Positions 1,502 through 25,405 of a stretch of 32,000 bases of DNA are shown here, piece after piece (position 1 is the first letter of the stretch; each line of letters begins with the position of its first letter). The position numbers and the translations under genes are program-made. The DNA is from Nitrosococcus oceani ATCC 19707. GTDB taxonomy: Bacteria > Pseudomonadota > Gammaproteobacteria > Nitrosococcales > Nitrosococcaceae. The notes below the pieces were generated by a model. The model did not search any database, had not been told where the DNA came from, and saw only the letters and a list, made by a program, of their open reading frames with translations. The stretch covers positions 2,580,001 to 2,612,000 of the forward strand of contig NC_007484.1 in NCBI RefSeq assembly GCF_000012805.1. The letters are read 5' to 3'.

Positions 1502-2245
1502 ATGGAATGGATTGCCGATCCTCAAGCGTGGATAGCATTGGCAACGCTTACCGCACTTGAAGTTGTTCTCGGTATAGACAATATCATTTTTATTTCTATA
1601 CTTGTTTCCCGATTACCTCTTCAGCAACGGGACAAAGCAAGGATCGCTGGCCTATCATTGGCAATGGGCATGCGTATTGCTCTACTGCTCTCCCTTGCAT
1701 GGGTCATGGGCCTCACAACTCCTCTTTTTTCAATATTGGGAGAAGAAATAACAGGGCGAGAGATTATTCTCATTGGCGGCGGACTTTTCTTGTTAGCAAA
1801 AAGCACCATTGAAATTCACAATAGCCTTGAAGGAACGGAAGAGCACACTCAAAGCTCGCAAGCAGTAAGTTTCGGGGTAATTCTTGCTCAGATTGCCGTT
1901 TTAGACATCGTATTTTCCCTCGATTCAGTGATCACAGCTATTGGAATGGTAAGCCAAATCCCCGTCATGGTCATTGCCATCGTTATCGCGATTCTTATCA
2001 TGATGGTTGCCTCCAAATCCATTGGGGAATTTGTGGACACCCATCCTACTATAAAGATGCTTGCCTTAAGCTTTTTGGTATTAATCGGGGTCACTTTGAT
2101 TGCTGAAGGCTTTGAGCTGCATATTCCAAAAGGATATATTTACTTCTCCATGGCCTTCTCCGTAGCAGTGGAAATGCTCAACTTGCGTCGCCGGAAAAAA
2201 CAACAAGCAGCCAGATCTCCAATTAAACTCTATAGACGGTTGTAA
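1502..2245 (+). CDS. TerC family integral membrane protein
   Basis: 247 aa, multi-pass hydrophobic. The N-terminal LEVVLGIDNIIFISIL and later LDIVFSLDSVITAIGM motifs are the paired TerC-family signatures. Confidence 0.85.
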   Translation: MEWIADPQAWIALATLTALEVVLGIDNIIFISILVSRLPLQQRDKARIAGLSLAMGMRIALLLSLAWVMGLTTPLFSILGEEITGREIILIGGGLFLLAKSTIEIHNSLEGTEEHTQSSQAVSFGVILAQIAVLDIVFSLDSVITAIGMVSQIPVMVIAIVIAILIMMVASKSIGEFVDTHPTIKMLALSFLVLIGVTLIAEGFELHIPKGYIYFSMAFSVAVEMLNLRRRKKQQAARSPIKLYRRL

Positions 2246-2270
2246 GACAGATCGATATAAGGAAAAGTAG

Positions 2271-2591
2271 ATGGCGTGGACTCATCTTGTCGTCGCTGGA
2301 TTGCTAGAAATCGTCTGGGCCATTGGGCTAAAATATACTATGGGCTTCACCAAATTTTGGCCAAGCGTTTTTACTGTTATAGCGATGATCGCTAGCTTTT
2401 ATTTTCTTTCCCAAGCATTAAAAGTTATTCCTATAGGCACGGGATACGCTATGTGGACAGGAATCGGCGTCGCTGGCACGGCTGTCTTGGGGATTATTCT
2501 TTTCTCGGAATCGGCTGCGCTGCCTCGCTTAGCATGTATCGCCCTGATTGTAGCCGGCATTATTGGATTGAAACTTACCTCATCTGATTAG
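2271..2591 (+). CDS. sugE: SMR family small multidrug resistance / guanidinium exporter (SugE/Gdx-like)
   Basis: 106 aa with four TM segments. Contains the N-terminal AGLLEIVWAIGLKY with the conserved membrane Glu and the YAMWTGIG motif typical of the SugE/Gdx subgroup. Confidence 0.85.
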   Translation: MAWTHLVVAGLLEIVWAIGLKYTMGFTKFWPSVFTVIAMIASFYFLSQALKVIPIGTGYAMWTGIGVAGTAVLGIILFSESAALPRLACIALIVAGIIGLKLTSSD

Positions 2592-2651
2592 ATTTAAGTC
2601 AATATTAAGACACAATTGACTCGGCGATACATTTCTTCCTTGACTGGCTCA

Positions 2652-3665
2652 TTACTCTTCTGACCGCTTACTCTCTATATCTGTTTCTTTATCCCTACAG
2701 CCGTCTGAAGTGATTCTCCCAGCTGCTTCAGACGCCAACAACTTCTCAACAGCCACGCGTAACGCCAGATTTTGACGCTCGATTTTACGCCGCTCGTTCT
2801 GTAAGGAGCGCAGCAGCGACGCAACCATAAAAACCATCAATATCATAAAGGGAAAAGCAGCAATGATGGAAATCGTCATAGCAGCGATAATGAAGTCGGT
2901 GGGACCGGCGAAAAAAACGAATAATAATAGCCCAGCCGCCAGCAGCATATTCAAATCACTGACGTAACGCACCCCTTTTTCCAAGGGAGTCAAAGCGCTC
3001 AACAGGAACACCACGGCTATACCGGCAAGAATCGCCAATTGTTGAGGGACACCAAACGCTAGATCAGAAACCGTGATAAGGCCGCTGTTGATCTGAATGA
3101 CTCCCATCCCCACTGTGGTGGCTACCCCAAACACGGTAGAGACTACTGCCAGTATATCAATAGCCTTGCCTAAAAGCCCCTCAACCCGGCTGCCAAGACT
3201 ATCGCGGAAAGCCTCGCTAATCAGGGCGCCTCGGGAACAACGGAAGCGAACATAGGCAATGGCTAGCGCCACGACAGCAAAATTAGCCTACTGATGGAAA
3301 CCCCAGTGAAAAAGGGAGTAGCGCAGCCCTAAACTGGCAGCTTCCGGCATCCGCGCTGGCGCCTGGTGCAGGGGTGGGTCCACGTAGTGCGTCATGGGTT
3401 CAGCCACTCCCCAAAATACCAACCCTACCCCCATGCCAGCGGAGAAAATCATGTCTAGCCAGGTAGGGAAAGAGAATTCCGGCTCTTCTCCTTCGGCCCC
3501 AAGCCTCAACTTGCCATGATCACTGATAGCTACTCCCACGCAAAATACCAGAAAACCAGTAGTGACGAACAAATATAACCAGCCAAAATGCCGGGTGGTG
3601 AAATGCAATACGCCTTGAGACCATAGGGACAGATCGCCAGGCCAAAATATTCCTGCAAGCGAACA
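2652..3665 (-). pseudogene. BCCT (betaine/carnitine/choline) family transporter pseudogene
   Basis: ORFs 3288-3608 and 2652-3272 are in the same frame, separated only by an in-frame TAG at 3288-3290 (HWGFHQ*ANFAVVALAIAY, where BCCT proteins have a Trp). BCCT signatures are present: FSAGMGVGLVFWGVAEP and IDILAVVSTVFGVATTVGMG. Total length is far short of a full BCCT protein. After GPTDFI the sequence jumps to a C-terminal-like TM, implying an internal deletion. The N-terminus lacks an ATG and hits a stop near 3666. Confidence 0.8.
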
Positions 3666-3814
3666 TCAGTTTCTCAAAATTAATCGGCTTTCCATCTACC
3701 GTTTTGCCCGATACTATACTAGCAGCTTGTTTTTGATATGCCTCAACACAATCAAGCGGCTATGGACACAACATAAGATAAGACCAGAGATACTGTATCT
3801 AGCATATACTCGCC

Positions 3815-3868
3815 CACGATATAGCAACTCTTTCGGCATTACACGATATAGCAACTCTTTCGGCATTA
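3815..3868. repeat. perfect tandem duplication, 2 x 27 bp (CACGATATAGCAACTCTTTCGGCATTA)
   Basis: Units 3815-3841 and 3842-3868 are identical 27/27 and directly abutting. They lie 64 bp upstream of the amidotransferase start. Confidence 0.95.
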
Positions 3869-3931: not shown

Positions 3932-4633
3932 ATGCAAATTCATTACTTTCAACACGTACCCTTCGAGAAGCCCGCCAATATTGAAAAATGGGCAAGAGCT
4001 CATCACCATCCATTGTCGGCTACCCAATTTTATCGTGGCGATCCTCTACCCGACATCAAAGCTATTGATTGGCTGGTGGTGATAGGTGGCCCTATGAATG
4101 TTTACGAAGAAACTACCTACCCCTGGCTAGCACAGGAAAAAAAATTTATTGAACAAGCCATTAAAGAAGATAAAGTTGTGATTGGAATTTGTCTAGGAGC
4201 CCAATTAATTGCCGATGTGCTAGGCGCAAAAATATTTCCAAATCCATATAAGGAGATTGGCTGGTTTCCCGTCCAATTCACGGCGGAAGCCCATGCTTCA
4301 TCCTTGCTTAGCTTCTTACCCCGGGAGCTCAGAGTTTTTCACTGGCATGGGGATACTTTTGAATTACCATCGGGCGCTATCCGATTAGCCCGAAACGAAG
4401 CCTGTCATAACCAGGGATTTATTTATAATAAGAAAGTGCTAGCTTTACAGTTTCACCTTGAAGTCAGATTAGAGAATGTACAGCAAATCATCGCCCATTG
4501 TGGAAATGAACTTATAGAGGACAGGTATATCCAAAAACCAGAAGAGATGCTATCCCAGAGGGAAGATTTCAGAAAAATTAATGGTGCTATGAAAGGTATT
4601 TTAGACAGACTTTTCCAGCAAACTGCTTCTTAA
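3932..4633 (+). CDS. class I glutamine amidotransferase-like protein (GMP synthase-type GATase domain only)
   Basis: 233 aa. Has the nucleophile elbow GICLGAQLIA and a downstream FHWHGD/FHLE region typical of triad GATase domains. Confidence 0.8.
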   Translation: MQIHYFQHVPFEKPANIEKWARAHHHPLSATQFYRGDPLPDIKAIDWLVVIGGPMNVYEETTYPWLAQEKKFIEQAIKEDKVVIGICLGAQLIADVLGAKIFPNPYKEIGWFPVQFTAEAHASSLLSFLPRELRVFHWHGDTFELPSGAIRLARNEACHNQGFIYNKKVLALQFHLEVRLENVQQIIAHCGNELIEDRYIQKPEEMLSQREDFRKINGAMKGILDRLFQQTAS

Positions 4634-4796: not shown

Positions 4797-5081
4797 TTGG
4801 AGTCCTCTATAGATGGTGAACGCACCCCCCAGCGAGCGTGCGAAGCGTAGCGGCGCATCGAGCGCTAGTTTTACCATGAATTCCCGCGATGATTTTCTCG
4901 TTGCCACAAGCGCGACCTATCCTCGGGAGGAGGAGAAGTGATGCGCGTGGAGGGTGATACCCAACCGGGGGCCTTGCGCGCTAAGTCGTGGCCAGCCCAA
5001 GGCACCCATTGAAGCGCGAATTCTCCAGGCGGATGAGGTTTTGTAGGAACAAAATCGACATCAGTCATGGTGAAACTCCAA
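4797..5081 (-). repeat. dispersed repeat family, copy A (285 bp)
   Basis: The reverse complement starts TTGGAGTTTCACCATGACTGATGTCGATTTTG... and is near-identical to 24755-24960 over about 200 nt. It ends ...GGGGGGTGCGTTCACCATCTATAGAGGACTCCAA. Similarity to copies B and C stops at both boundaries. Confidence 0.75.
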
Positions 5082-5288
5082 GTTCCAGTAGCGGTACAGG
5101 CACAAGGTGCCCAGCTCATCAGAACAAATGACGGGGACAGGATGATATTCCGGCGCTATTGCGAGATTTTTAGGTGAGAGCGGGAGGAGGGTCAGATCTT
5201 TTGTGCTTTCCACAGTGACGTCGAGGCCCATGGCCTTGGCCAAATTCTCGACCAGTCCGAGGACATAGTCTGGTTGGAATTTGCCGTC

Positions 5289-5390
5289 TATTTTAAACTG
5301 GGGATGACTGCCGGCGATTGTCCAGCTATTCAAAAAACCGGCGCCGAAGGCACCATCATCGCCACCACCGGAAATAGCAAGGAATACCGC
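5289..5390 (-). pseudogene. patatin-like phospholipase gene fragment (oxyanion-hole region only)
   Basis: Inside ORF 5061-5522, the segment AVFLAISGGGDDGAFGAGFLNSWTIAGSHPQFKI matches the N-terminal GGGxxG(A)FGAG..L.GW block of patatin-like lipoproteins. No serine-hydrolase GxSxG follows. Confidence 0.45.
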
Positions 5391-5760
5391 GCGCAGTGGG
5401 AAACACGTTATCCTTATCACCCCACCCACGCCCCCGAGCAGGCGCTCGAGGACTATCGCCAATGCTGGCAAACGGAATGTCTGCTTGCGGTGATGAAGCT
5501 CCGGGGCTTCCCTCGAAGACACGCAAATATCACCGATCCAAACCGGGTCGCTCGATTGCTCGCGGTCATGACCTTGGCGCTGTGCTGGTGCTATAAGGTG
5601 GGGCTCTGGTTAGAGCGGCAACAACCCATTGAGATCAAAAAACATCAGCGCCGCGCTTGTAGTGGGGCCCGTTTGGGCCTGGATACGGTGCGCCAGGCTT
5701 TGCTCAATGGCGCTTCACAAGCACGCTTGATAGGCTACTGTATTCACTTCCTTTTCGATA
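5382..5760 (+). pseudogene. IS4-family DDE transposase C-terminal remnant
   Basis: Inside ORF 5274-5849, YRQCWQTECLLAVMKLRGF...ITDPNRVARLLAVMTLALCWCYKVGLW...IEIKKHQRRACSGARLGLD matches the Y-x2-R-x3-E-x6-K block and the following helix of IS4-type transposases. The N-terminal roughly two thirds of a transposase are absent. Confidence 0.6.
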
Positions 5761-10063: not shown

Positions 10064-12036
10064 AGGCTAATAATGAGAAGGGAAACCTGCATAACCTATT
10101 CCTATTCCCAGAGGGCGAAACAGAAGCCCCAGGGGCCGCTTCCGGGAAGGCCACCAAGGCCAAGATACCATCAAGCGCCAAGCGTGCCCCGAAGGTTAAA
10201 GCGGATGCGGTGAACGACAAAGGGACCCCTGCCCCTTCCCTGAATGGAGAATCAAACCCTAAGACCCAGGCAGCCGAGACCACCCCGAAAGCTAAGGCCG
10301 ACAAGAAAAAGCAGGTTGATATTAGGCCGCCTTGTTTCGCGGTGCATGATGATTTTTGCCTAGTTAACGGACGTGAGACATGCCCCGGCGTTTGGCGGTA
10401 TGACGTGAAAGAGACCAAAGAGGGAACGGTCCTTGTTAGAGAGTGGGTAGCAACCCCCATTCATGTAAGAGCGATTACGCGCAACGAACAGGGCGAAAAT
10501 TACGGGTTTCTACTGGAGTTCCTGGACGATGATAAAAAATGGAAAACCTGGTCCATGCCTAGACGGATGTTAAGCGGTAGCGGCGAGGATGTGCGCAAGG
10601 CGCTATTAGATAGGGGTGCGCGCATAGCTCCAGGAAAGGGAGGTCTGTTGAATAGATATTTCATGAAGCAATTCCCCAAGCGCCGCGTCACTTCAACATC
10701 CCGTGTAGGCTGGACCGATGACGGGGAAACCTTTGTATTCCCAAGGGAGTGTATTAGCAGCCTAAGAGGCAAGGAAGCCATTTTTCAGGCTGAAATGCTG
10801 GCCGAGGCCGACTATCCGAAAAAAGGCACCCTGGAGGGATGGCGGCGAAACATCGGCCAGCTATGCGAGGGTAACCCCGTGCTAACCATGGCCGTATCGG
10901 CGGCGCTGGCCGGGCCACTGCTGTTAAAAACGGATAAAAGCGAGGGCGCAGGCATTCACTTCTTAGGCGACAGTTCCAAGGGGAAATCTACCGCGTTACA
11001 GGTAGCCGCTAGCGTCTGGGGCAATCATGAGTTTATGCAATCCTGGAACAGTACAGCCAATGGATTAGAGGGCATAGCGGCGGCCAGAAATGACACCTGT
11101 TTAATTATTGATGAGATAAGCGAGGGCAACCCCTATGAGCTGGGTAAAATTGCCTACATGATAGCCAACGGCAGAGGCAAGAGCCGGGCTAACCGCATAG
11201 GGGAAGCTAAGGGAATAAGACGCTGGCGGATTGTGGCGCTATCCACAGGAGAGAAAACCCTTTCCTCCATGCTGGAGTCCGTCAAAATCGATGCCAATTC
11301 CGGGCAGAATGTTCGCCTTCTAAACATCCCTTCCACCGGGTTTAGTTACGGCGCGTTTGACTGCCTCCATGGTTTCGCTAGTGGGCGGGAGCTGGCGGAT
11401 GCCCTCAAGCAAGCGCGCCACCATGACTACAGTCTAGTAGGTTACGCATTCATTGAAAACCTACTAAAGAGAAGGTCGCCAAACCTACCAAGCCGACTTA
11501 AGGACATTACCGACGAACTCAAGCCACTTGTTAACACGACCATAGAAGGGCGGGCAGCCGATACCATGGCCCTGTTCATCCTGGCCGGGGAACTGGGCAT
11601 TGAATACGGCCTATTACCCTGGAAGCCTGGCGCGGCCATGGAGGCGGGCAAAATCCTGTTTGAGCTATGGCGGGATAACCAGACCGGGGACGGGACCGAG
11701 GATAAGCAGATTCTTAAGAATGTTAAGGACTTTATCGACAGGCATGGAGATAGCCGCTTTCAATTCAGAGGCACGCAACCTGATAAGGATTTTGTGACTA
11801 TCAGGGATAGGGCCGGATGGTTTGAGATGAATGACGATAATGAAAGGGTTTACCTGTTTCACTCTAGCGGTCTGAAAGAGGCCGGGGGAGGGTTTGAACT
11901 TAAACGCGTTGCCCAGGCGCTAGATAGGGCGGGATGGGTAACCAAAAAAGGCAAAGGAAGGTTAAACCTTAGCTATGACTTTAGAGACTTCAAGGGCAGG
12001 CTTTACGCTATCAAGCCAGAATCGAATTTAGATTAA
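10060..12036 (+). CDS. DUF927-domain P-loop NTPase / replicative helicase, with a Lys/Ala/Pro-rich N-terminal tail
   Basis: SRVGWTDDGETFVFP is the DUF927 signature. Walker A is GDSSKGKST and Walker B is CLIIDEISE. I prefer the ATG at 10060, which overlaps the primase TGA (ATGA), over the track's 10000 start. Confidence 0.8.
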   Translation: MKANNEKGNLHNLFLFPEGETEAPGAASGKATKAKIPSSAKRAPKVKADAVNDKGTPAPSLNGESNPKTQAAETTPKAKADKKKQVDIRPPCFAVHDDFCLVNGRETCPGVWRYDVKETKEGTVLVREWVATPIHVRAITRNEQGENYGFLLEFLDDDKKWKTWSMPRRMLSGSGEDVRKALLDRGARIAPGKGGLLNRYFMKQFPKRRVTSTSRVGWTDDGETFVFPRECISSLRGKEAIFQAEMLAEADYPKKGTLEGWRRNIGQLCEGNPVLTMAVSAALAGPLLLKTDKSEGAGIHFLGDSSKGKSTALQVAASVWGNHEFMQSWNSTANGLEGIAAARNDTCLIIDEISEGNPYELGKIAYMIANGRGKSRANRIGEAKGIRRWRIVALSTGEKTLSSMLESVKIDANSGQNVRLLNIPSTGFSYGAFDCLHGFASGRELADALKQARHHDYSLVGYAFIENLLKRRSPNLPSRLKDITDELKPLVNTTIEGRAADTMALFILAGELGIEYGLLPWKPGAAMEAGKILFELWRDNQTGDGTEDKQILKNVKDFIDRHGDSRFQFRGTQPDKDFVTIRDRAGWFEMNDDNERVYLFHSSGLKEAGGGFELKRVAQALDRAGWVTKKGKGRLNLSYDFRDFKGRLYAIKPESNLD

Positions 12037-12047
12037 CGTTTTTGGAC

Positions 12048-12120
12048 TGGTGAGTGTGGTGAGAAATGTTAACCGCCTTACTCTCCCAAGGGTTTCGGCG
12101 CTTCCTCACCACACTCACCA
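12048..12120. repeat. perfect 16-bp inverted repeat with 41-nt spacer, just downstream of the helicase stop
   Basis: TGGTGAGTGTGGTGAG (12048-12063) and CTCACCACACTCACCA (12105-12120) are exact reverse complements. Confidence 0.85.
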
Positions 12121-12171
12121 CTAGAAAAACGCAACTTTGAATTTATTTTTTGAAAAAGGACTTTGCTTACC

Positions 12172-18575: not shown

Positions 18576-19994
18576 TTAATACGATTGGTCTACGCAGTTT
18601 TGGAGTCGCTGTCGAACCCGCGCTACCCCCATCAAAGGAAGCAAGCGAGCCAATTCTGGGCCATCTAACTCTCCAGTAAAGGCTGCCCGCAAAGGGAGAA
18701 AAAGCGACCGGCCTTTTGCGCCCGTAGTTTGCTTGAGTTGAGCAGCAAGCGCTTTAAAATCGGTACCAGAACCGTCAACAGCGGCTAATGCCTGGGTAAA
18801 GAATTGGGCGCCCGCCTCATGGATAATGGGTAAGATGCCGTCCTTGAGCACAAGCTCTTCGCTAAAGAGCACTTTCGCCCAATGAAGAGCATCTTCAGGT
18901 AAAACTACGTTAGGCCGAACAGTTTCGATAAAATCCTGATATTTATCGGCTGGTACCTGGGAAGCGGCTACCGGCGCTAGCCACCGCTCCAAGGTGTCAA
19001 GATCACAGCGAGCCAGGGCCTCCCGTTGCCAATGATGAAGTTGTTGTGGATCAAAGCGTGCCGGTGCCCTCCCCAGCCGCGCCAAGTCGAATTGAGCAGC
19101 CAGAGTATCCAAATCCAGAAAACCGCTATCTTCATAATGATGACCTAGCCGAGCCAGATAATTACATAATGCTTCTGGCAAATAGCCTGCCTCCCGTAAT
19201 TCCCGGACGCTGCGACTCCCGTGACGCTTGGAGAGGGGAGCGCCATCGCGGCCCACGATCATGGCAATATGTCCATAGCGAGGTATCGGCAGCCCCAAAG
19301 CCCGGAGTAACAGGATTTGGCGCGGGGTGTTGGTCAGATGATCCTCGCCCCTCAAGACATGAGTAACACCCATCAGGGCATCATCTAGAGCATTGCTAAA
19401 AAAGAACGCAGGTGAACCATCAGTACGCCGGATTATAAAATCACCGATATCTCCCGTTGCAAAACGCTGGGGACCCCGTACTAAATCCTCAAATTCGATA
19501 GTGGTAAGGGACGGCACACGAAACCGCAGAGCGGACTTAAAGCCTGCCGCTAATTTACCTTCTACTTCCTCGGGGCTGAGACGGGCACAGGTTCCCGGAT
19601 AGCGGGGGGCTTGGCCTGCAGCTAACTGCCGCTTGCGCACTCGCTCAAGTTCCTCCTGGGAACAAAAACAAGGATAGGCCAATTTTTCAGCCTCTAAACG
19701 CTGAAAATCAGCCTGGTAAACAGAACGCCGCTGGGATTGCCGGTAAGGCCCTGCTTCTCCTTCCACTTCCGGCCCCTCTTGCCATTCCAGAGCTAACCAG
19801 CGCAGATCTTCCATCAATGCCGTCACATATTCCTCGCTACTCCGTTCCTGATCTGTATCTTCAATCCGCAGCAGAAACAGGCCACGGCTGCGCCGGGCTA
19901 GCAGGGCATTAAACAAAGCGGTACGTATATTTCCCAGATGCAAGAGTCCACTGGGGCTTGGGGCAAAACGGGTCTTAAGCGCAGTTTTATTCAT
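18576..19994 (-). CDS. gltX: glutamate--tRNA ligase
   Basis: 472 aa. Has RFAPSPSGLLHLGNIRTALFN (HIGH-type) and LSKRHG (KMSKS-type). At full length it includes the anticodon-binding domain, so it is not the short GluQRS paralog. Confidence 0.9.
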   Translation of the reverse strand: MNKTALKTRFAPSPSGLLHLGNIRTALFNALLARRSRGLFLLRIEDTDQERSSEEYVTALMEDLRWLALEWQEGPEVEGEAGPYRQSQRRSVYQADFQRLEAEKLAYPCFCSQEELERVRKRQLAAGQAPRYPGTCARLSPEEVEGKLAAGFKSALRFRVPSLTTIEFEDLVRGPQRFATGDIGDFIIRRTDGSPAFFFSNALDDALMGVTHVLRGEDHLTNTPRQILLLRALGLPIPRYGHIAMIVGRDGAPLSKRHGSRSVRELREAGYLPEALCNYLARLGHHYEDSGFLDLDTLAAQFDLARLGRAPARFDPQQLHHWQREALARCDLDTLERWLAPVAASQVPADKYQDFIETVRPNVVLPEDALHWAKVLFSEELVLKDGILPIIHEAGAQFFTQALAAVDGSGTDFKALAAQLKQTTGAKGRSLFLPLRAAFTGELDGPELARLLPLMGVARVRQRLQNCVDQSY

Positions 19995-20166
19995 GGCTTA
20001 GCATAATAATAGAAAAATCAGCTAGTCACAAAAATTACTGGCTTAGAATTTTTCTCGTTGGGGCTAAAACATGGATGTTTAGCGACCCCCTAGTAAGGTT
20101 GCCTGCCTGTGCGTGTCCGCACGCAGACAGGCGAAGTGAAACGGCGCGCCGAACGGGAGGGCCGCA

Positions 20167-20319
20167 TTACTTGCGTTTTGCCATGAATTCCCGTTTCACG
20201 GCCTCCGAGAGAAGGGTCTCCGTCATATTTGCAATCGACCTGTTTTGTTGTTTTGCCATCTCGACAATTTTGGCGCGTAGCTCGGCATCTATCCGAAGGT
20301 TCAACGTTTCTTTTTTCAT
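20167..20319 (-). CDS. ribbon-helix-helix (CopG/Arc/MetJ-type) DNA-binding protein, 50 aa; solitary antitoxin-like
   Basis: My translation is MKKETLNLRIDAELRAKIVEMAKQQNRSIANMTETLLSEAVKREFMAKRK*. It shows a beta-strand (LNLRID) followed by two helices, the classic RHH layout. It is below the ORF-track length cutoff. There is no strong SD. Confidence 0.6.
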   Translation of the reverse strand: MKKETLNLRIDAELRAKIVEMAKQQNRSIANMTETLLSEAVKREFMAKRK

Positions 20320-20338
20320 TGCCGGAACAACCTGTTTG

Positions 20339-20362
20339 TGTTACATTCAATTTATGGTAACA
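20339..20362. promoter_or_regulatory. palindrome TGTTAC-N12-GTAACA, about 20 nt upstream of the RHH start (candidate operator)
   Basis: Exact 6-bp inverted arms around an AT-rich spacer, in the only plausible promoter region of the RHH ORF. Confidence 0.35.
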
Positions 20363-20617
20363 TAATGCGCCTACCCCTTCAGGTTCTACCCCACAACTGC
20401 GCAAAAGCGGCAATTGGCTATTGAGCTTAGCCCTGCCCGGTTTGTATGGAACTGGGCGTTGGAAACCCGAACGAAGGCGTACCAGGAAGACAAGGTGAGA
20501 AGGGACCGAACTGCTGTCAGTCATGGCGAAACTCCAAATAACGATATTCGCGTAATATAGCCAGTTTCAGAAATCTAATTGATAATCCTTAATCTCAATC
20601 AAAACAGGTTTACATTT

Positions 20618-21211
20618 ATGCACGCTTCCCCAAAAACACTTACTTTCCTTTTGCTTGGCATATTTAGCTTCGCGGCTGAAGCAGGCGGTGGAGCAGTATC
20701 TCCGGATCAGCCACAGGTTAAATTACAAACTACCCTGGGTGATATTGTGATCGCACTCAATCCGGAGAAAGCGCCCGTCACCGTAGAAAATTTTCTCCGC
20801 TATGTGAACGAAGGCTTCTACAACGGTACTTTGTTTCACCGGGTAATTGACAATTTTATGATTCAAGGCGGCGGCTTCGATACCGATTTTAACTCCAAAT
20901 CAACCCACGATCCCATACAGAATGAAGCAGATAACGGACTTAAGAACGAGGTAGGGACCATCGCCATGGCACGTACTTCTGATCCCCATTCAGCTACCGC
21001 TCAATTTTTCATTAACGTCGCCAACAACGCTTCTCTAAACCACCGGAACCAGGATCGCCAAGGCTGGGGTTATGCGGTTTTTGGCCAGGTCATCGAAGGC
21101 ATGGACGTGGTCGATGCCATCAAAAAAGTAAAGACAGGCAGCAAAGGGAATCACAGAGATGTCCCCTTAGAGCCTGTTATTATCGAGCAGGCCACCGTCG
21201 TGGAGAATTGA
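20618..21211 (+). CDS. ppiA: periplasmic cyclophilin-type peptidyl-prolyl cis-trans isomerase
   Basis: Signal peptide [22 protein letters not shown], then cyclophilin motifs [15 protein letters not shown] and [18 protein letters not shown] prefer the ATG at 20618 over the track start at 20579. Confidence 0.9.
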
Positions 21212-24678: not shown

Positions 24679-24754
24679 AGCCTTGCTCCAAAAACCAAAA
24701 AAGGCACTTCAATCTGAAGTGCCTTGGCTAGCCTTTATCTCATTTATTCAAATT

Positions 24755-25055
24755 TTGGAGTTTCGCCATGACTGATGTCGATTTTGTTCCTACAAAACCT
24801 CATCCGCCTGGAAAATTCGCGCTTCAACGGGTGCCTTGGGCTGGCCACGACTTAGCGCGCAAGGCCCTCAGTTTGGTATCACCCTCCACGCGCATCACTT
24901 CCCCTCCTCCCGAGGATAGGTCGCGCTTGTGGCAACGGGAAAATCATAGCGCGAATTCATGGCAAAATGCAAGTAACCTGGCCCTCGTGCTCGTAGCAAA
25001 GTTTCACTTCGCACGCTCGCTGAGGGGGTCGTTCACTATCCATGGAGAGCTCCAA
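24755..25055 (+). repeat. dispersed repeat family, copy C (301 bp)
   Basis: Starts TTGGAGTTTCGCCATGACTGATGTCG... and ends ...GGGGGTCGTTCACTATCCATGGAGAGCTCCAA. It is near-identical to copy A over about 200 nt and fills the ogt-rplS spacer. Confidence 0.75.
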
Positions 25056-25057
25056 CG

Positions 25058-25405
25058 TTAAATCTTTTCTTTAATACGGGCCGCCTTGCCTCTCCGCTCC
25101 CGCAGATAATAGAGTTTAGCACGGCGCACATCACCCCGGCGTTTAACCAGAATACTTTCTAAGGTAGGACTATGGGTCTGAAAAACCCGCTCAACCCCTT
25201 CCCCATGAGAAATTTTGCGCACGGTAAATGAAGAGTTGAGACCACGGTTACGCTTCGCAATCACAACCCCTTCAAAGGCCTGTAAACGTTCACGCGTGCC
25301 CTCTTTCACCCGAACCTGCACCTGAACCGTGTCTCCTGGACAAAATTCTGGTAAATCTTGCTTTAGCTGCTCTGATTCAATTGCCTTAATAATATTATTG
25401 CTCAT
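25058..25405 (-). CDS. rplS: 50S ribosomal protein L19
   Basis: 115 aa. Has the canonical L19 sequence ([29 protein letters not shown]) and is last in the rpsP-rimM-trmD-rplS operon. Confidence 0.95.

What the first reader, a model, noticed from the sequence alone, without database searches (positions are those of the whole stretch)
20058..20537. Repeat copy B carries an intact solitary RHH (antitoxin-like) ORF with its own palindromic operator candidate, upstream of gltX
Inside copy B there is an uninterrupted 50-codon ORF (20167-20319, minus strand) with a textbook ribbon-helix-helix layout (MKKETLNLRIDAELRAKIVEMAKQQNRSIANMTETLLSEAV...). A TGTTAC-N12-GTAACA palindrome precedes it by about 20 nt. 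No toxin-sized ORF lies on either side within the element, because the element ends about 60 nt before the gltX start. Copies A and C retain only a fossil of the ORF's last codons: copy C keeps seven codons plus the stop (GAATTCATGGCAAAATGCAAGTAA = EFMAKCK*), preceded by an in-frame TAG, and copy A only EFMVK with no stop. This suggests the A/C type derives from an RHH-bearing ancestor by interior replacement. B also has a roughly 30-nt GC-rich hairpin insertion (CTGCGTG-cgga-CACGCAG core) absent from A and C. A small regulator riding on a repeat element inserted in the gltX-cysS promoter region could rewire expression of two aminoacyl-tRNA synthetases.
Basis: partly seen in the sequence, partly recalled or inferred. 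Interest (0 to 1): 0.65.

Follow-up and report, generated by a model that had tools for sequence, protein, structure and literature searches.

The report
Decayed IS605-type transposon keeping its Arc repressor
The small "antitoxin-like" gene upstream of gltX is the leftover repressor gene (Arc-like ribbon-helix-helix protein) of a broken IS605-family transposon whose TnpB nuclease gene has been mostly deleted, a gene pairing already described in the literature, so the finding is real but ordinary.

Summary

Copy B is not a solitary antitoxin cassette. It is an internally deleted IS200/IS605-family insertion sequence of the TnpA-less, IS1341-like type. The palindrome contains the start codon of a divergent tnpB gene. 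About 47 codons of it survive (Pfam HTH_OrfB_IS605, E=4e-14), with a stop at codon 4, fused to the last ~45 nt of the right end.

Full-length relatives occur in Nitrosococcus oceani C-27 and in metagenomes. They have the same left end, a 50-52-aa RHH gene, a ~30-nt gap holding the same palindrome, and an intact 384-aa tnpB.

Copies A and C are the complementary deletion products: left end plus an omega-RNA-like right end. They did not arise by "interior replacement".

The protein models as an Arc/CopG fold, and dN/dS is about 0.08. The "Arc" RHH of IS605-family transposons was reported in 2023-24. A September 2026 preprint shows it repressing the divergent tnpB promoter.

A close relative has an empty site, and both host core promoters lie outside the element. 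Nothing supports rewiring of gltX-cysS.

The parts
20060..20537 (.). Copy B: an internally deleted IS200/IS605-family (IS1341-like) arc-tnpB element. The left boundary is uncertain by 1-2 nt.
   Evidence: The empty site in a close relative reads GCTCGTC|ATAACGATATTC, against window ...CTCGTT[GGGG...CTCCAA]ATAACGATATTC. N. wardiae has only a 141-nt gltX-PPIase spacer, against 623 nt here. B aligns to the full-length element L092 in two blocks separated by about 1.07 kb in L092.
20063..20083 (+). Left-end subterminal hairpin (GCTAAAACA-TGGA-TGTTTAGC).
   Evidence: The same position in relatives carries GTACA/TGTAC, ATACA/TGTAT or GTGCA/TGCAC, which are compensatory changes (alignment A6; fold).
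20102..20131 (+). GC-rich hairpin inserted in the left end.
   Evidence: It is absent from A, C, L001, L092, L093 and L101. A related hairpin sits at the same position in L002 and L096-98.
20167..20319 (-). arc-like gene: a 50-aa ribbon-helix-helix protein.
   Evidence: ORF. The AlphaFold2 model has pLDDT 88.6 with a strand-helix-helix layout. Foldseek top hits are all RHH proteins, TM 0.69-0.89. The family profile matches CopG-family PDB chains at E=1.3e-4. dN/dS is 0.08.
20337..20364 (.). Candidate operator: TGTGTTAC-N12-GTAACATA, in the 34-nt gap between the arc and tnpB start codons. The right arm covers tnpB codons 2-4.
   Evidence: The arms are conserved in L007, L001, L093, L101 and L103 while the spacers vary from 12 to 14 nt. 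In L001 the left arm overlaps the -10 of a predicted tnpB-strand promoter, TTGTCA-17-TACTAT with an upstream TG.
20354..20497 (+). tnpB remnant: the first ~47 codons, with a TAA stop at codon 4 (20363-20365).
   Evidence: PF12323 at E=4e-14. It is in frame with, and 60% identical to, residues 1-68 of the L092 TnpB.
20498..20537 (+). Right-end remnant (...GACCGAACTGCTGTCAGTCATGGCGAAACTCCAA). The deletion junction lies somewhere in 20481-20497.
   Evidence: 85-90% identical to the right ends of L092, L093 and L096.
4799..5081 (+). Copy A: a miniature derivative. It holds the left end, the last 5 arc codons, and about 200 nt of the tnpB 3' end plus the omega-RNA-like right end.
24755..25053 (-). 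Copy C: the same miniature type as A. It lies between the rplS stop codon and the operon terminator.
20003..20031 (-). Host gltX promoter-like site (TTGTGA-17-TATTAT), outside the element.
   Evidence: The same hexamers are present in the empty-site relative L100.
20558..20586 (+). Host PPIase promoter-like site (TAGCCA-17-GATAAT), outside the element.

Best explanation
Copy B is the immobile remnant of a TnpA-less IS200/IS605-family insertion sequence. The complete form reads: left end, arc (RHH, minus strand), a ~30-nt control region, tnpB (plus strand), an omega-RNA region, right end.

An internal deletion of about 1.07 kb removed tnpB from about codon 47 onward and most of the omega-RNA scaffold. 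A later nonsense mutation hit tnpB codon 4. The 153-nt arc gene and its control region stayed intact.

The 50-aa product is an Arc-like ribbon-helix-helix repressor. By inference from characterised IS605 Arc proteins, two dimers bind the two 8-bp arms TGTGTTAC and GTAACAYA. The arm centres are 20-22 bp apart. The arms overlap the -10 element of the tnpB promoter and the tnpB start codon. Binding would shut off tnpB and probably arc itself.

In this genome the cis target is dead, so the protein is at most an autoregulated orphan. It might still act in trans on sibling elements that carry the same arms.

Shown: the element's identity and architecture, the RHH fold, the operator conservation, and the insertion itself. 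Inferred: DNA binding, repression, and present-day expression.
For: - tnpB N-terminus: it lies next to the ORF and matches PF12323 at E=4e-14.
- Full-length relatives share the left end, arc, the palindrome and a divergent tnpB: L001; L092 in N. oceani C-27, with a 384-aa TnpB carrying D-E-D and a zinc finger; and L101.
- N. oceani paralogues: every RHH paralogue examined sits next to tnpB or its remnants.
- B aligns to both ends of L092.
- Empty site: found in L100 and in N. wardiae, with no target-site duplication.
- Left-end hairpin: shows compensatory changes.
- A/C interior: homologous to the tnpB 3' end and right end, with a conserved structure; 20 of 41 predicted pairs show double changes.
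- RHH fold. Of 43 relatives, 37 match RHH_5, 24 match RHH_1 and 4 match Arc.
- Purifying selection: dN/dS is 0.078-0.085.
- After the deletion: the orthologous copy in a 2.7%-divergent strain has 1 synonymous and 0 non-synonymous changes in arc, against 14 changes in 279 nt in the rest of the element (Fisher p=0.024).
- Operator: arms are conserved across loci whose Arc proteins are only ~50% identical. Loci with a different beta-strand (L092, L010) have different palindromes.
- Literature: Arc-like RHH ORFs in IS605/IStron elements (10.1101/2023.11.20.567912). Arc binds the divergent arc/tnpB promoter and represses tnpB, including in elements with arc and tnpB alone (10.64898/2026.09.24.754181).
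Against: - No transcription or binding data exist for this protein.
- The sigma-70 scan finds no promoter inside B at its threshold. By eye, the counterpart of the L001 tnpB promoter is degenerate here (TTGCCG-17-TACATT).
- Each arm pair in the window and in L007 carries one mismatch.
- The window protein alone stays below every Pfam and NCBIfam cut-off.
- Sequence relatedness to the experimentally tested Arc proteins (WP_094548610.1, WP_003367503.1) could not be checked.
- If the six clustered differences at 20348-20366 are counted as one event, such as a gene-conversion tract, the post-deletion conservation test weakens to p=0.11.
Confidence: 0.8

Rival explanations
1. Same origin, but the gene is now a functionless relic. 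The 153-nt ORF stays open only because it is a small mutational target, and it is neither expressed nor selected.
For: - tnpB is dead and the omega-RNA scaffold is gone.
- No consensus promoter is predicted inside B.
- The operator arms carry a mismatch.
- Copies A and C show that arc can be lost.
- The apparent excess of loci with intact arc and broken tnpB is biased, because those loci were found by searching for intact Arc proteins.
Against: Between the window and the L007 strain, which share the same deletion junction, arc has 1 synonymous and 0 non-synonymous changes in 153 nt. The rest of the element has 14 changes in 279 nt, and the PPIase gene has 13 in 593 nt. The numbers are small, with p between 0.024 and 0.11.
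Confidence: 0.35
2. The gene is an orphan type II antitoxin. Either a classical toxin has been lost, or TnpB itself was the toxin, as proposed for archaeal RHH/MazE-TnpB pairs. On this view the RHH neutralises a protein rather than mainly regulating a promoter.
For: - RHH domains are common antitoxins. Foldseek's best hits include CopA(SO), TacA and Rv0298.
- Altae-Tran et al. 2023 propose an RHH-TnpB toxin-antitoxin pair with direct RHH-TnpB contact (PMC10691335).
- The C-terminal tail KREFMAKRK is invariant among paralogues.
Against: - arc and tnpB are divergent, not an operon, in all full-length relatives.
- The protein is only 50 aa, with no toxin-binding extension beyond the RHH core.
- The related TnpBs keep a canonical D-E-D site, unlike the archaeal clade with its RuvC-III D-to-H change.
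- No toxin-like ORF lies in or beside B.
- The invariant tail overlaps conserved left-end DNA, which by itself explains its conservation.
Confidence: 0.07
3. The gene is a domesticated host regulator. The insertion places an RHH regulator, or its promoter, upstream of gltX-cysS and thereby changes expression of these aminoacyl-tRNA synthetase genes.
For: - arc points toward gltX, with 172 nt between the arc stop and the gltX start.
- No terminator-like site is predicted on that strand, so read-through is possible.
- The insertion is fixed in all N. oceani assemblies sampled.
Against: - The predicted gltX core promoter (20031-20003) lies outside the element, and its hexamers are also present in the empty-site relative.
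- The operator occurs once in 32 kb and not near either host promoter.
- An autorepressed arc promoter would contribute little read-through.
- IS605-type elements insert at short target motifs, not for host benefit.
Confidence: 0.07

Closest known systems
[quoted passage not shown]
   Same: - A protein of about 50 aa encoded inside an IS605-family element.
- It is transcribed divergently from tnpB across a short gap.
- Inverted sequence motifs in that gap overlap promoter elements.
- Elements carrying arc and tnpB alone, without tnpA, are among those the authors tested.
- The putative DNA-reading residues sit at beta-strand positions 5/7/9: T5/N7/R9 here, N5/N7/T9 in the P. xylanilyticum protein.
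   Different: - The host is a marine gammaproteobacterium (Nitrosococcus) rather than a Clostridium.
- tnpB is reduced to 47 codons, so the repressor is orphaned.
- The operator sequence is different, and its half-site centres are about two helical turns apart.
- Direct sequence relatedness to the published Arc set was not testable here.
IS200/IS605 family, IS1341 group (tnpB-only elements) and their non-autonomous miniature derivatives (PATE/MITE-like)
   Same: - No target-site duplication and no long terminal inverted repeats.
- A subterminal hairpin at the left end.
- In full-length relatives, a TnpB with HTH_OrfB_IS605, RuvC and zinc-finger parts.
- A structured RNA region overlapping the tnpB 3' end and the right end.
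- Short derivatives made of the left end plus the right end (copies A and C).
   Different: - The element carries an extra RHH gene in the position where IS605 proper carries tnpA.
- The target motif could not be fixed. All nine copies are preceded by C-N-T-T, but the empty site reads CGTC.
P22 Arc, Mnt and plasmid CopG repressors
   Same: They share the beta-alpha-alpha fold (Foldseek TM 0.67-0.72 to 1baz, 1par, 1b01 and 2cpg), small size, and a palindromic operator overlapping a promoter.
   Different: Sequence similarity is detectable only at profile level. The half-site spacing here is 20-22 bp centre to centre, against about 11 bp for Arc (the Arc figure is from general knowledge). The context is a transposon, not a phage or plasmid.
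Archaeal RHH/MazE-TnpB pairs proposed as toxin-antitoxin systems (Altae-Tran et al., PNAS 2023)
   Same: A small RHH protein genetically linked to TnpB.
   Different: In the archaeal pairs the RHH gene lies upstream of tnpB in the same orientation, the TnpB catalytic site is rearranged, and the loci are immobile. Here the genes are divergent, the catalytic site is canonical, and the pair sits inside a mobile element with defined ends.

Membership tests
Ribbon-helix-helix (Arc/MetJ/CopG) superfamily | Beta-strand, helix, helix topology in about 45 residues | tested here: met
   AlphaFold2 with a 43-sequence alignment gives pLDDT 88.6: an extended N-terminus (residues 1-11), then helices at 12-24 and 29-49. 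The best-ranked Foldseek PDB matches, including all of the top nine, are RHH proteins (6iya, 7ak7, 8u12, 3ft7, 1baz, 3qoq, 1b01...), with TM 0.67-0.89 and probability 0.9-1.0.
Ribbon-helix-helix (Arc/MetJ/CopG) superfamily | Significant sequence or profile match to RHH families | tested here: met
   The window protein alone gives only sub-threshold hits: DUF6364 1.5e-4, RHH_5 6.7e-4, HicB, Arc, and YlcI/YnfO 1.1e-5. The family profile A4 matches CopG-family chains 6iya and 7etr at E=1.3e-4 and 3.7e-4, and ORF56 at 1.8e-3. Of 43 relatives, 37 match RHH_5, 24 match RHH_1 and 4 match Arc.
Ribbon-helix-helix (Arc/MetJ/CopG) superfamily | Obligate homodimer that reads DNA with a two-stranded beta-sheet | not testable with these tools
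   Only monomer prediction was available. No binding assay was possible.
IS605-family Arc repressors (Zedaveinyte 2024; Moon 2026) | Encoded within the boundaries of an IS605-family element | tested here: met
   The ORF lies between a left end and a right end shared with full-length elements. The empty site defines the insertion.
IS605-family Arc repressors (Zedaveinyte 2024; Moon 2026) | Adjacent to and divergent from tnpB, with a short intergenic control region | tested here: met
   The gaps are 28-35 nt in L001, L092 and L101, where tnpB is intact. In the window the gap is 34 nt, next to the tnpB remnant.
IS605-family Arc repressors (Zedaveinyte 2024; Moon 2026) | Oppositely oriented binding motifs overlapping promoter elements, with binding and repression shown | tested here: inconclusive
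   Inverted arms are present and conserved. In L001 the left arm overlaps a predicted -10 element. No promoter passes the scan in the window, L092 or L101. Binding and repression cannot be tested here.
IS605-family Arc repressors (Zedaveinyte 2024; Moon 2026) | Sequence homology to the published Arc clade (seeds WP_003367503.1, WP_094548610.1) | not tested
   The seed sequences are not in the text held for either paper, and no supplement is held for the 2026 preprint. The only indirect evidence is the Pfam Arc hits in 4 of 43 relatives.
IS200/IS605 family (IS1341-like, tnpB only) | TnpB with an N-terminal HTH_OrfB_IS605 domain, a RuvC D-E-D site and a zinc finger | tested here: met
   The window fragment matches PF12323 at E=4e-14. 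The full-length relative L092 has PF12323, PF01385 and PF07282, with VGVDVG, CLEDL, HDRDINAA and CxxC motifs.
IS200/IS605 family (IS1341-like, tnpB only) | No target-site duplication and no long terminal inverted repeats | tested here: met
   Comparing the occupied and empty sites shows no duplicated bases. The ends share only TTGGRG/CTCCAA.
IS200/IS605 family (IS1341-like, tnpB only) | Subterminal hairpin at the left end | tested here: met
   A 5-bp stem shows compensatory changes across seven copies.
IS200/IS605 family (IS1341-like, tnpB only) | Structured guide-RNA (omega RNA) region overlapping the tnpB 3' end and the right end | tested here: inconclusive
   Conserved blocks and a consensus fold are present, and 20 of 41 predicted pairs keep pairing through double changes. 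There is no Rfam match and no RNA data. B retains only about 45 nt of this region.
IS200/IS605 family (IS1341-like, tnpB only) | Insertion 3' of a fixed short target motif (TAM) | tested here: inconclusive
   All nine copies are preceded by C-N-T-T, but the empty site reads CGTC and N. wardiae reads CACC.
IS200/IS605 family (IS1341-like, tnpB only) | Y1 transposase TnpA encoded in the element | tested here: not met
   No tnpA is present in L092, L101 or the window, which fits the non-autonomous IS1341 group. IS200/IS605 TnpA genes are reported elsewhere in N. oceani C-107 (PMC7285500).
Type II toxin-antitoxin antitoxin | Co-oriented adjacent toxin gene forming an operon | tested here: not met
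   No such ORF lies in or next to B. In the tnpB-linked relatives examined, the neighbouring gene is a divergent tnpB.
Type II toxin-antitoxin antitoxin | C-terminal toxin-neutralising extension beyond the DNA-binding domain | tested here: not met
   The protein is 50 aa, and helix 2 runs to residue 49.

The most novel reading that the evidence does not exclude
After its tnpB was destroyed, the orphan arc gene has been kept by selection, for one of two reasons. It may act as a trans-acting "immunity" repressor that silences sibling or incoming arc-tnpB elements carrying the same TGTGTTAC/GTAACACA operator; at least one other decayed copy in the same genome has these arms. Or it may be a regulator co-opted by the host. 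Either way, a broken transposon would be leaving behind a working repressor that polices its own family.
Probability: 0.2. Interest if true: 0.5.

Novelty: new member of a known kind. Interest (0 to 1): 0.25.

Why it matters
This explains three unexplained repeats and an unannotated micro-ORF in the Nitrosococcus oceani genome. All are decay products of one IS605-family arc-tnpB transposon.

It adds proteobacterial examples to the recently described Arc-tnpB regulatory module. These come with a clearly conserved operator (TGTGTTAC-N12-14-GTAACACA) and natural variants in which the beta-strand and the operator differ together, which could be used to study RHH specificity.

It removes the suggestion that gltX-cysS regulation has been rewired. 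It also flags a modest, testable hint that the repressor outlives its nuclease partner.

Tried and rejected
- Word-indexed protein search with the 50-aa ORF found only two close relatives.
- A JGI metagenome scan with the three-sequence alignment confirmed no relative.
- The first AlphaFold2 model, from a three-sequence alignment, gave meaningless Foldseek hits. The three-sequence profile matched no real PDB relative. Both problems were fixed by building a 43-sequence alignment from the exhaustive HMMER search.
- tblastn of the RHH against plasmids and phages gave only weak hits (E >= 0.09) in unrelated contexts, including upstream of DNA methylases, and none next to a tnpB.
- tblastn of related TnpB proteins against the window found only the fragment in B and nothing in A or C. 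The homology of A and C is visible only at the DNA and structure level.
- Rfam has no family for the right-end RNA.
- The sigma-70 scan found no promoter inside B, L092 or L101.
- I first read TTGRR as the target motif. I rejected this because the empty site lacks it.
- I considered that "arc intact, tnpB broken" in five or six loci shows selection for arc. I rejected this as ascertainment bias.
- The overlapping 144-aa and 96-aa ORFs in B were dismissed, having no Pfam match.
Full report
**1. Observation.**

The region lies between gltX (18576-19994, minus strand; cysS follows it) and a cyclophilin-type PPIase gene (ATG at 20618, plus strand).

- The 50-codon ORF at 20167-20319 (-) is intact.
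- The palindrome TGTTAC-N12-GTAACA sits at 20339-20362. It is the only match in the window, with 0.03 matches expected by chance. With one mismatch it extends to 8-nt arms.
- Copies A (about 4797-5081, +) and C (24755-25055, -) are 95% identical to each other. They share only their terminal ~60 nt with B.
- C retains REFMAKCK* after an in-frame TAG, and A retains EFMVK.
- B has an extra GC-rich hairpin at 20102-20131.

**2.

The + strand from 20354 reads MVT*CAYPFRFYPTTAQKRQLAIELSPARFVWNWALETRTKAYQEDKV. This is the N-terminus of an IS605-family TnpB: Pfam HTH_OrfB_IS605, E=4e-14, 52 bits against a cut-off of 21.

Its ATG lies inside the palindrome's spacer, next to the right arm. The arc and tnpB start codons are 34 nt apart and divergent.

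**3. Related loci.**

The ORF has only two close relatives among 5.8 billion proteins.

- L001, a metagenome contig, carries the same left end, an 86%-identical RHH gene, the perfect palindrome TGTGTTAC-N12-GTAACACA, and a divergent intact tnpB of at least 282 aa with RuvC-I and RuvC-II motifs.
- L002 is another deletion derivative.

A profile built from an exhaustive HMMER search gave 356 representatives at E<=1e-3, and the follow-up profile search gave 825 hits. These include paralogues in N. oceani, N. halophilus, N. watsonii and N. wardiae. Their contexts are:

- P0165 (70% identical, N. oceani C-27) lies 34 nt from a divergent intact 384-aa TnpB with D-E-D and a zinc finger.
- P0161 lies 35 nt from a 385-aa TnpB.
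- P0178, P0184 and the N. halophilus copy P0169 lie beside frameshifted or internally deleted tnpB genes.
- One relative, P0156, has no detectable tnpB.

The window protein, P0178 and P0184 each occur on a 3,481,691-bp contig. Other contigs that carry the window protein come from N. oceani assemblies. I infer that the window comes from N. oceani and that this genome holds at least three arc copies, each beside a decayed tnpB.

**4. Anatomy of B, A and C.**

B aligns to the full-length L092 element in two blocks:

- left end, arc and tnpB 5' end: 361 nt at 70.6% identity;
- right end: 53 nt at 85% identity.

The blocks are about 1.07 kb apart in L092. B is therefore an internal-deletion derivative.

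The interior of A and C aligns with the 3' end of tnpB and the right end of the N. oceani elements and of more distant TnpB loci. The shared features are the blocks TGCGCGTGGAGGG and GTTGAAGCGCGAA and the terminus A[CT]TCCAA. The consensus fold keeps 20 of 41 pairs through double changes. This is where TnpB guide (omega) RNAs are encoded, which I state from general knowledge of TnpB systems.

So A and C consist of the left end plus an omega-RNA-like right end, and B consists of the left end, arc, the tnpB 5' end and the right-end tip. They are complementary deletions of one architecture, not an "interior replacement".

The "fossil" arc codons in A and C have a simple explanation. The last arc codons overlap conserved left-end DNA. 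The tail KREFMAKRK is invariant among paralogues that are otherwise about 50% identical.

**5. It is an insertion.**

- A strain whose PPIase is 95% identical has the empty site GCTCGTC|ATAACGATATTC.
- N. wardiae has a 141-nt spacer in place of 623 nt.
- There is no target-site duplication and no long terminal inverted repeat.
- The left-end hairpin shows compensatory changes: AAACA/TGTTT, GTACA/TGTAC, ATACA/TGTAT and GTGCA/TGCAC.

These are IS200/IS605 hallmarks. No tnpA lies in the element, which fits the IS1341-like group. IS200/IS605 TnpA genes are reported elsewhere in N. oceani (PMC7285500).

The target motif stays unresolved. All nine copies are preceded by C-N-T-T, but the empty site reads CGTC.

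**6. The protein.**

- With a 43-sequence alignment, AlphaFold2 gives pLDDT 88.6: an extended N-terminal strand segment, then helices at 12-24 and 29-49.
- The best Foldseek PDB matches are RHH proteins (CopA(SO), TacA, Rv0298, ORF56, Arc, AmrZ, CopG) at TM 0.67-0.89.
- The family profile matches CopG-family chains at E=1.3e-4.
- Of 43 relatives, 37 match Pfam RHH_5.
- dN/dS is 0.078 for window versus L001, and 0.085 for L001 versus L002.

**7. The operator.**

Six loci keep the arms TGT(G/A)TTAC and (G/T)TAAC(A/G)CA while the 12-14-nt spacers and the adjoining 17 nt differ: window, L007, L001, L093, L101 and L103. Their Arc proteins are as little as about 50% identical but share the beta-strand pattern x-N-x-R-I/V-D.

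Loci with a different beta-strand carry different perfect palindromes at the same place:

- L092, beta-strand SLRIN: TCATGTATAC-N13-GTATACATGA.
- L010, beta-strand VVTIRLT: ATCGTACTA-N7-TAGTACGAT.

In L001 the left arm overlaps the -10 of a predicted tnpB-strand promoter (TTGTCA-17-TACTAT with an upstream TG). That position would give a nearly leaderless tnpB mRNA.

In the window the equivalent hexamers are weaker, and no promoter passes the scan.

**8. Literature.**

- Arc-like RHH ORFs associated with TnpB were reported by Zedaveinyte et al..
- Moon et al. (bioRxiv, September 2026) show by ChIP-seq and reporter assays that Arc binds oppositely oriented motifs in the divergent arc/tnpB promoter and represses tnpB. 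Their test set includes elements with arc and tnpB alone. They also note that some Arc proteins are <=50-aa microproteins missing from annotations.
- Altae-Tran et al. 2023 proposed a toxin-antitoxin role for archaeal, co-oriented RHH-TnpB pairs. That architecture does not fit here.

**9. Is the orphan still under selection?**

L007, a strain 2.7% divergent over 1195 nt, has the same deletion junction. The comparison therefore covers time after arc was orphaned.

| Region | Changes | Length (nt) |
|---|---|---|
| arc | 1 (synonymous) | 153 |
| Rest of the element | 14 | 279 |
| PPIase gene | 13 | 593 |

For arc against the rest of the element, Fisher p=0.024. Six of the 14 differences cluster at 20348-20366. 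If they are one event, p=0.11. This is a hint, not proof.

L007 also lacks the TAA at tnpB codon 4, so that stop codon is recent.

**10. Effect on gltX.**

The predicted gltX promoter (20031-20003) and PPIase promoter (20558-20586) both lie outside the element. The gltX hexamers are unchanged in the empty-site strain.

Read-through from arc into gltX is possible, because no terminator is predicted, but nothing supports it.

**11. Verdict.**

The finding is a real feature, correctly described but incompletely interpreted. It is a decayed IS605-family arc-tnpB element whose Arc-like repressor gene survives.

This is a new member of a known kind. Its interest is low to moderate and rests mainly on the possible retention of the orphan repressor.

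Noticed in passing
window 24700-25060 (minus strand): Copy C lies 2-4 nt after the rplS stop codon (25058) and before the operon's intrinsic terminator (GGCACTTCAGATTGAAGTGCC followed by a T run, at about 24700-24735). Its omega-RNA-like right end should therefore be co-transcribed as the 3' UTR of a highly expressed ribosomal-protein operon.
   Followed up: partly
window 20102-20131; L002 310-356; L096 1896-1914 and 3169-3187: A GC-rich palindrome of the type CCTGCCTG...CAGGCAGG occupies the same left-end position in B, L002 and L096-98, with a second copy in the right-end region of L096. It is absent from A, C, L001, L092, L093 and L101. It may be a small hairpin repeat that inserts site-specifically, or one that is repeatedly lost.
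   Followed up: partly
L007 790-993 (orthologue of window 20354-20557): In a 2.7%-divergent N. oceani-like strain the truncated tnpB remnant is still an open 67-codon ORF (MLTQRAYPFRFYPTAAQKRQLAIEFSSARFVWNWALETRTKAYQEDKVRRDRTAVSHGETPNNDIHVI). The stop at codon 4 in the window is therefore a recent change, with two C-to-T changes at 20363 and 20366.
   Followed up: yes
L103 (N. halophilus Nc4) 2080-3861: This is another arc copy with an intact ORF. Its tnpB has an internal deletion joining residues 1-17 to 304-384, and an IS630-like (DDE_3) element is inserted between arc and the outer part of the left end.
   Followed up: partly
L089-L091 (plasmids of Ca. Tenderia, Sphingobium, Citrobacter): Distant relatives of this RHH (38-40% identity, E about 0.1). 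In Sphingobium and Citrobacter they lie immediately upstream of DNA methylase or restriction-modification genes, not tnpB. This fits the report that Arc-like proteins regulate many kinds of neighbouring genes.
   Followed up: no
window 3815-3868: A perfect tandem duplication of a 27-nt unit (CACGATATAGCAACTCTTTCGGCATTA, two copies) lies about 65 nt upstream of the glutamine amidotransferase-like ORF at 3932.
   Followed up: no
window 12025-12143: A 42-nt inverted repeat (79% complementary, 35-nt loop) overlaps the last 12 nt of the ORF ending at 12036 and extends beyond it.
   Followed up: no
window 5061-5522 (minus strand): The mechanical ORF call (GTG start) overlaps the right end of copy A by about 20 nt and has no Pfam match. 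The true start of the neighbouring gene, if it is a gene, is probably further downstream.
   Followed up: no
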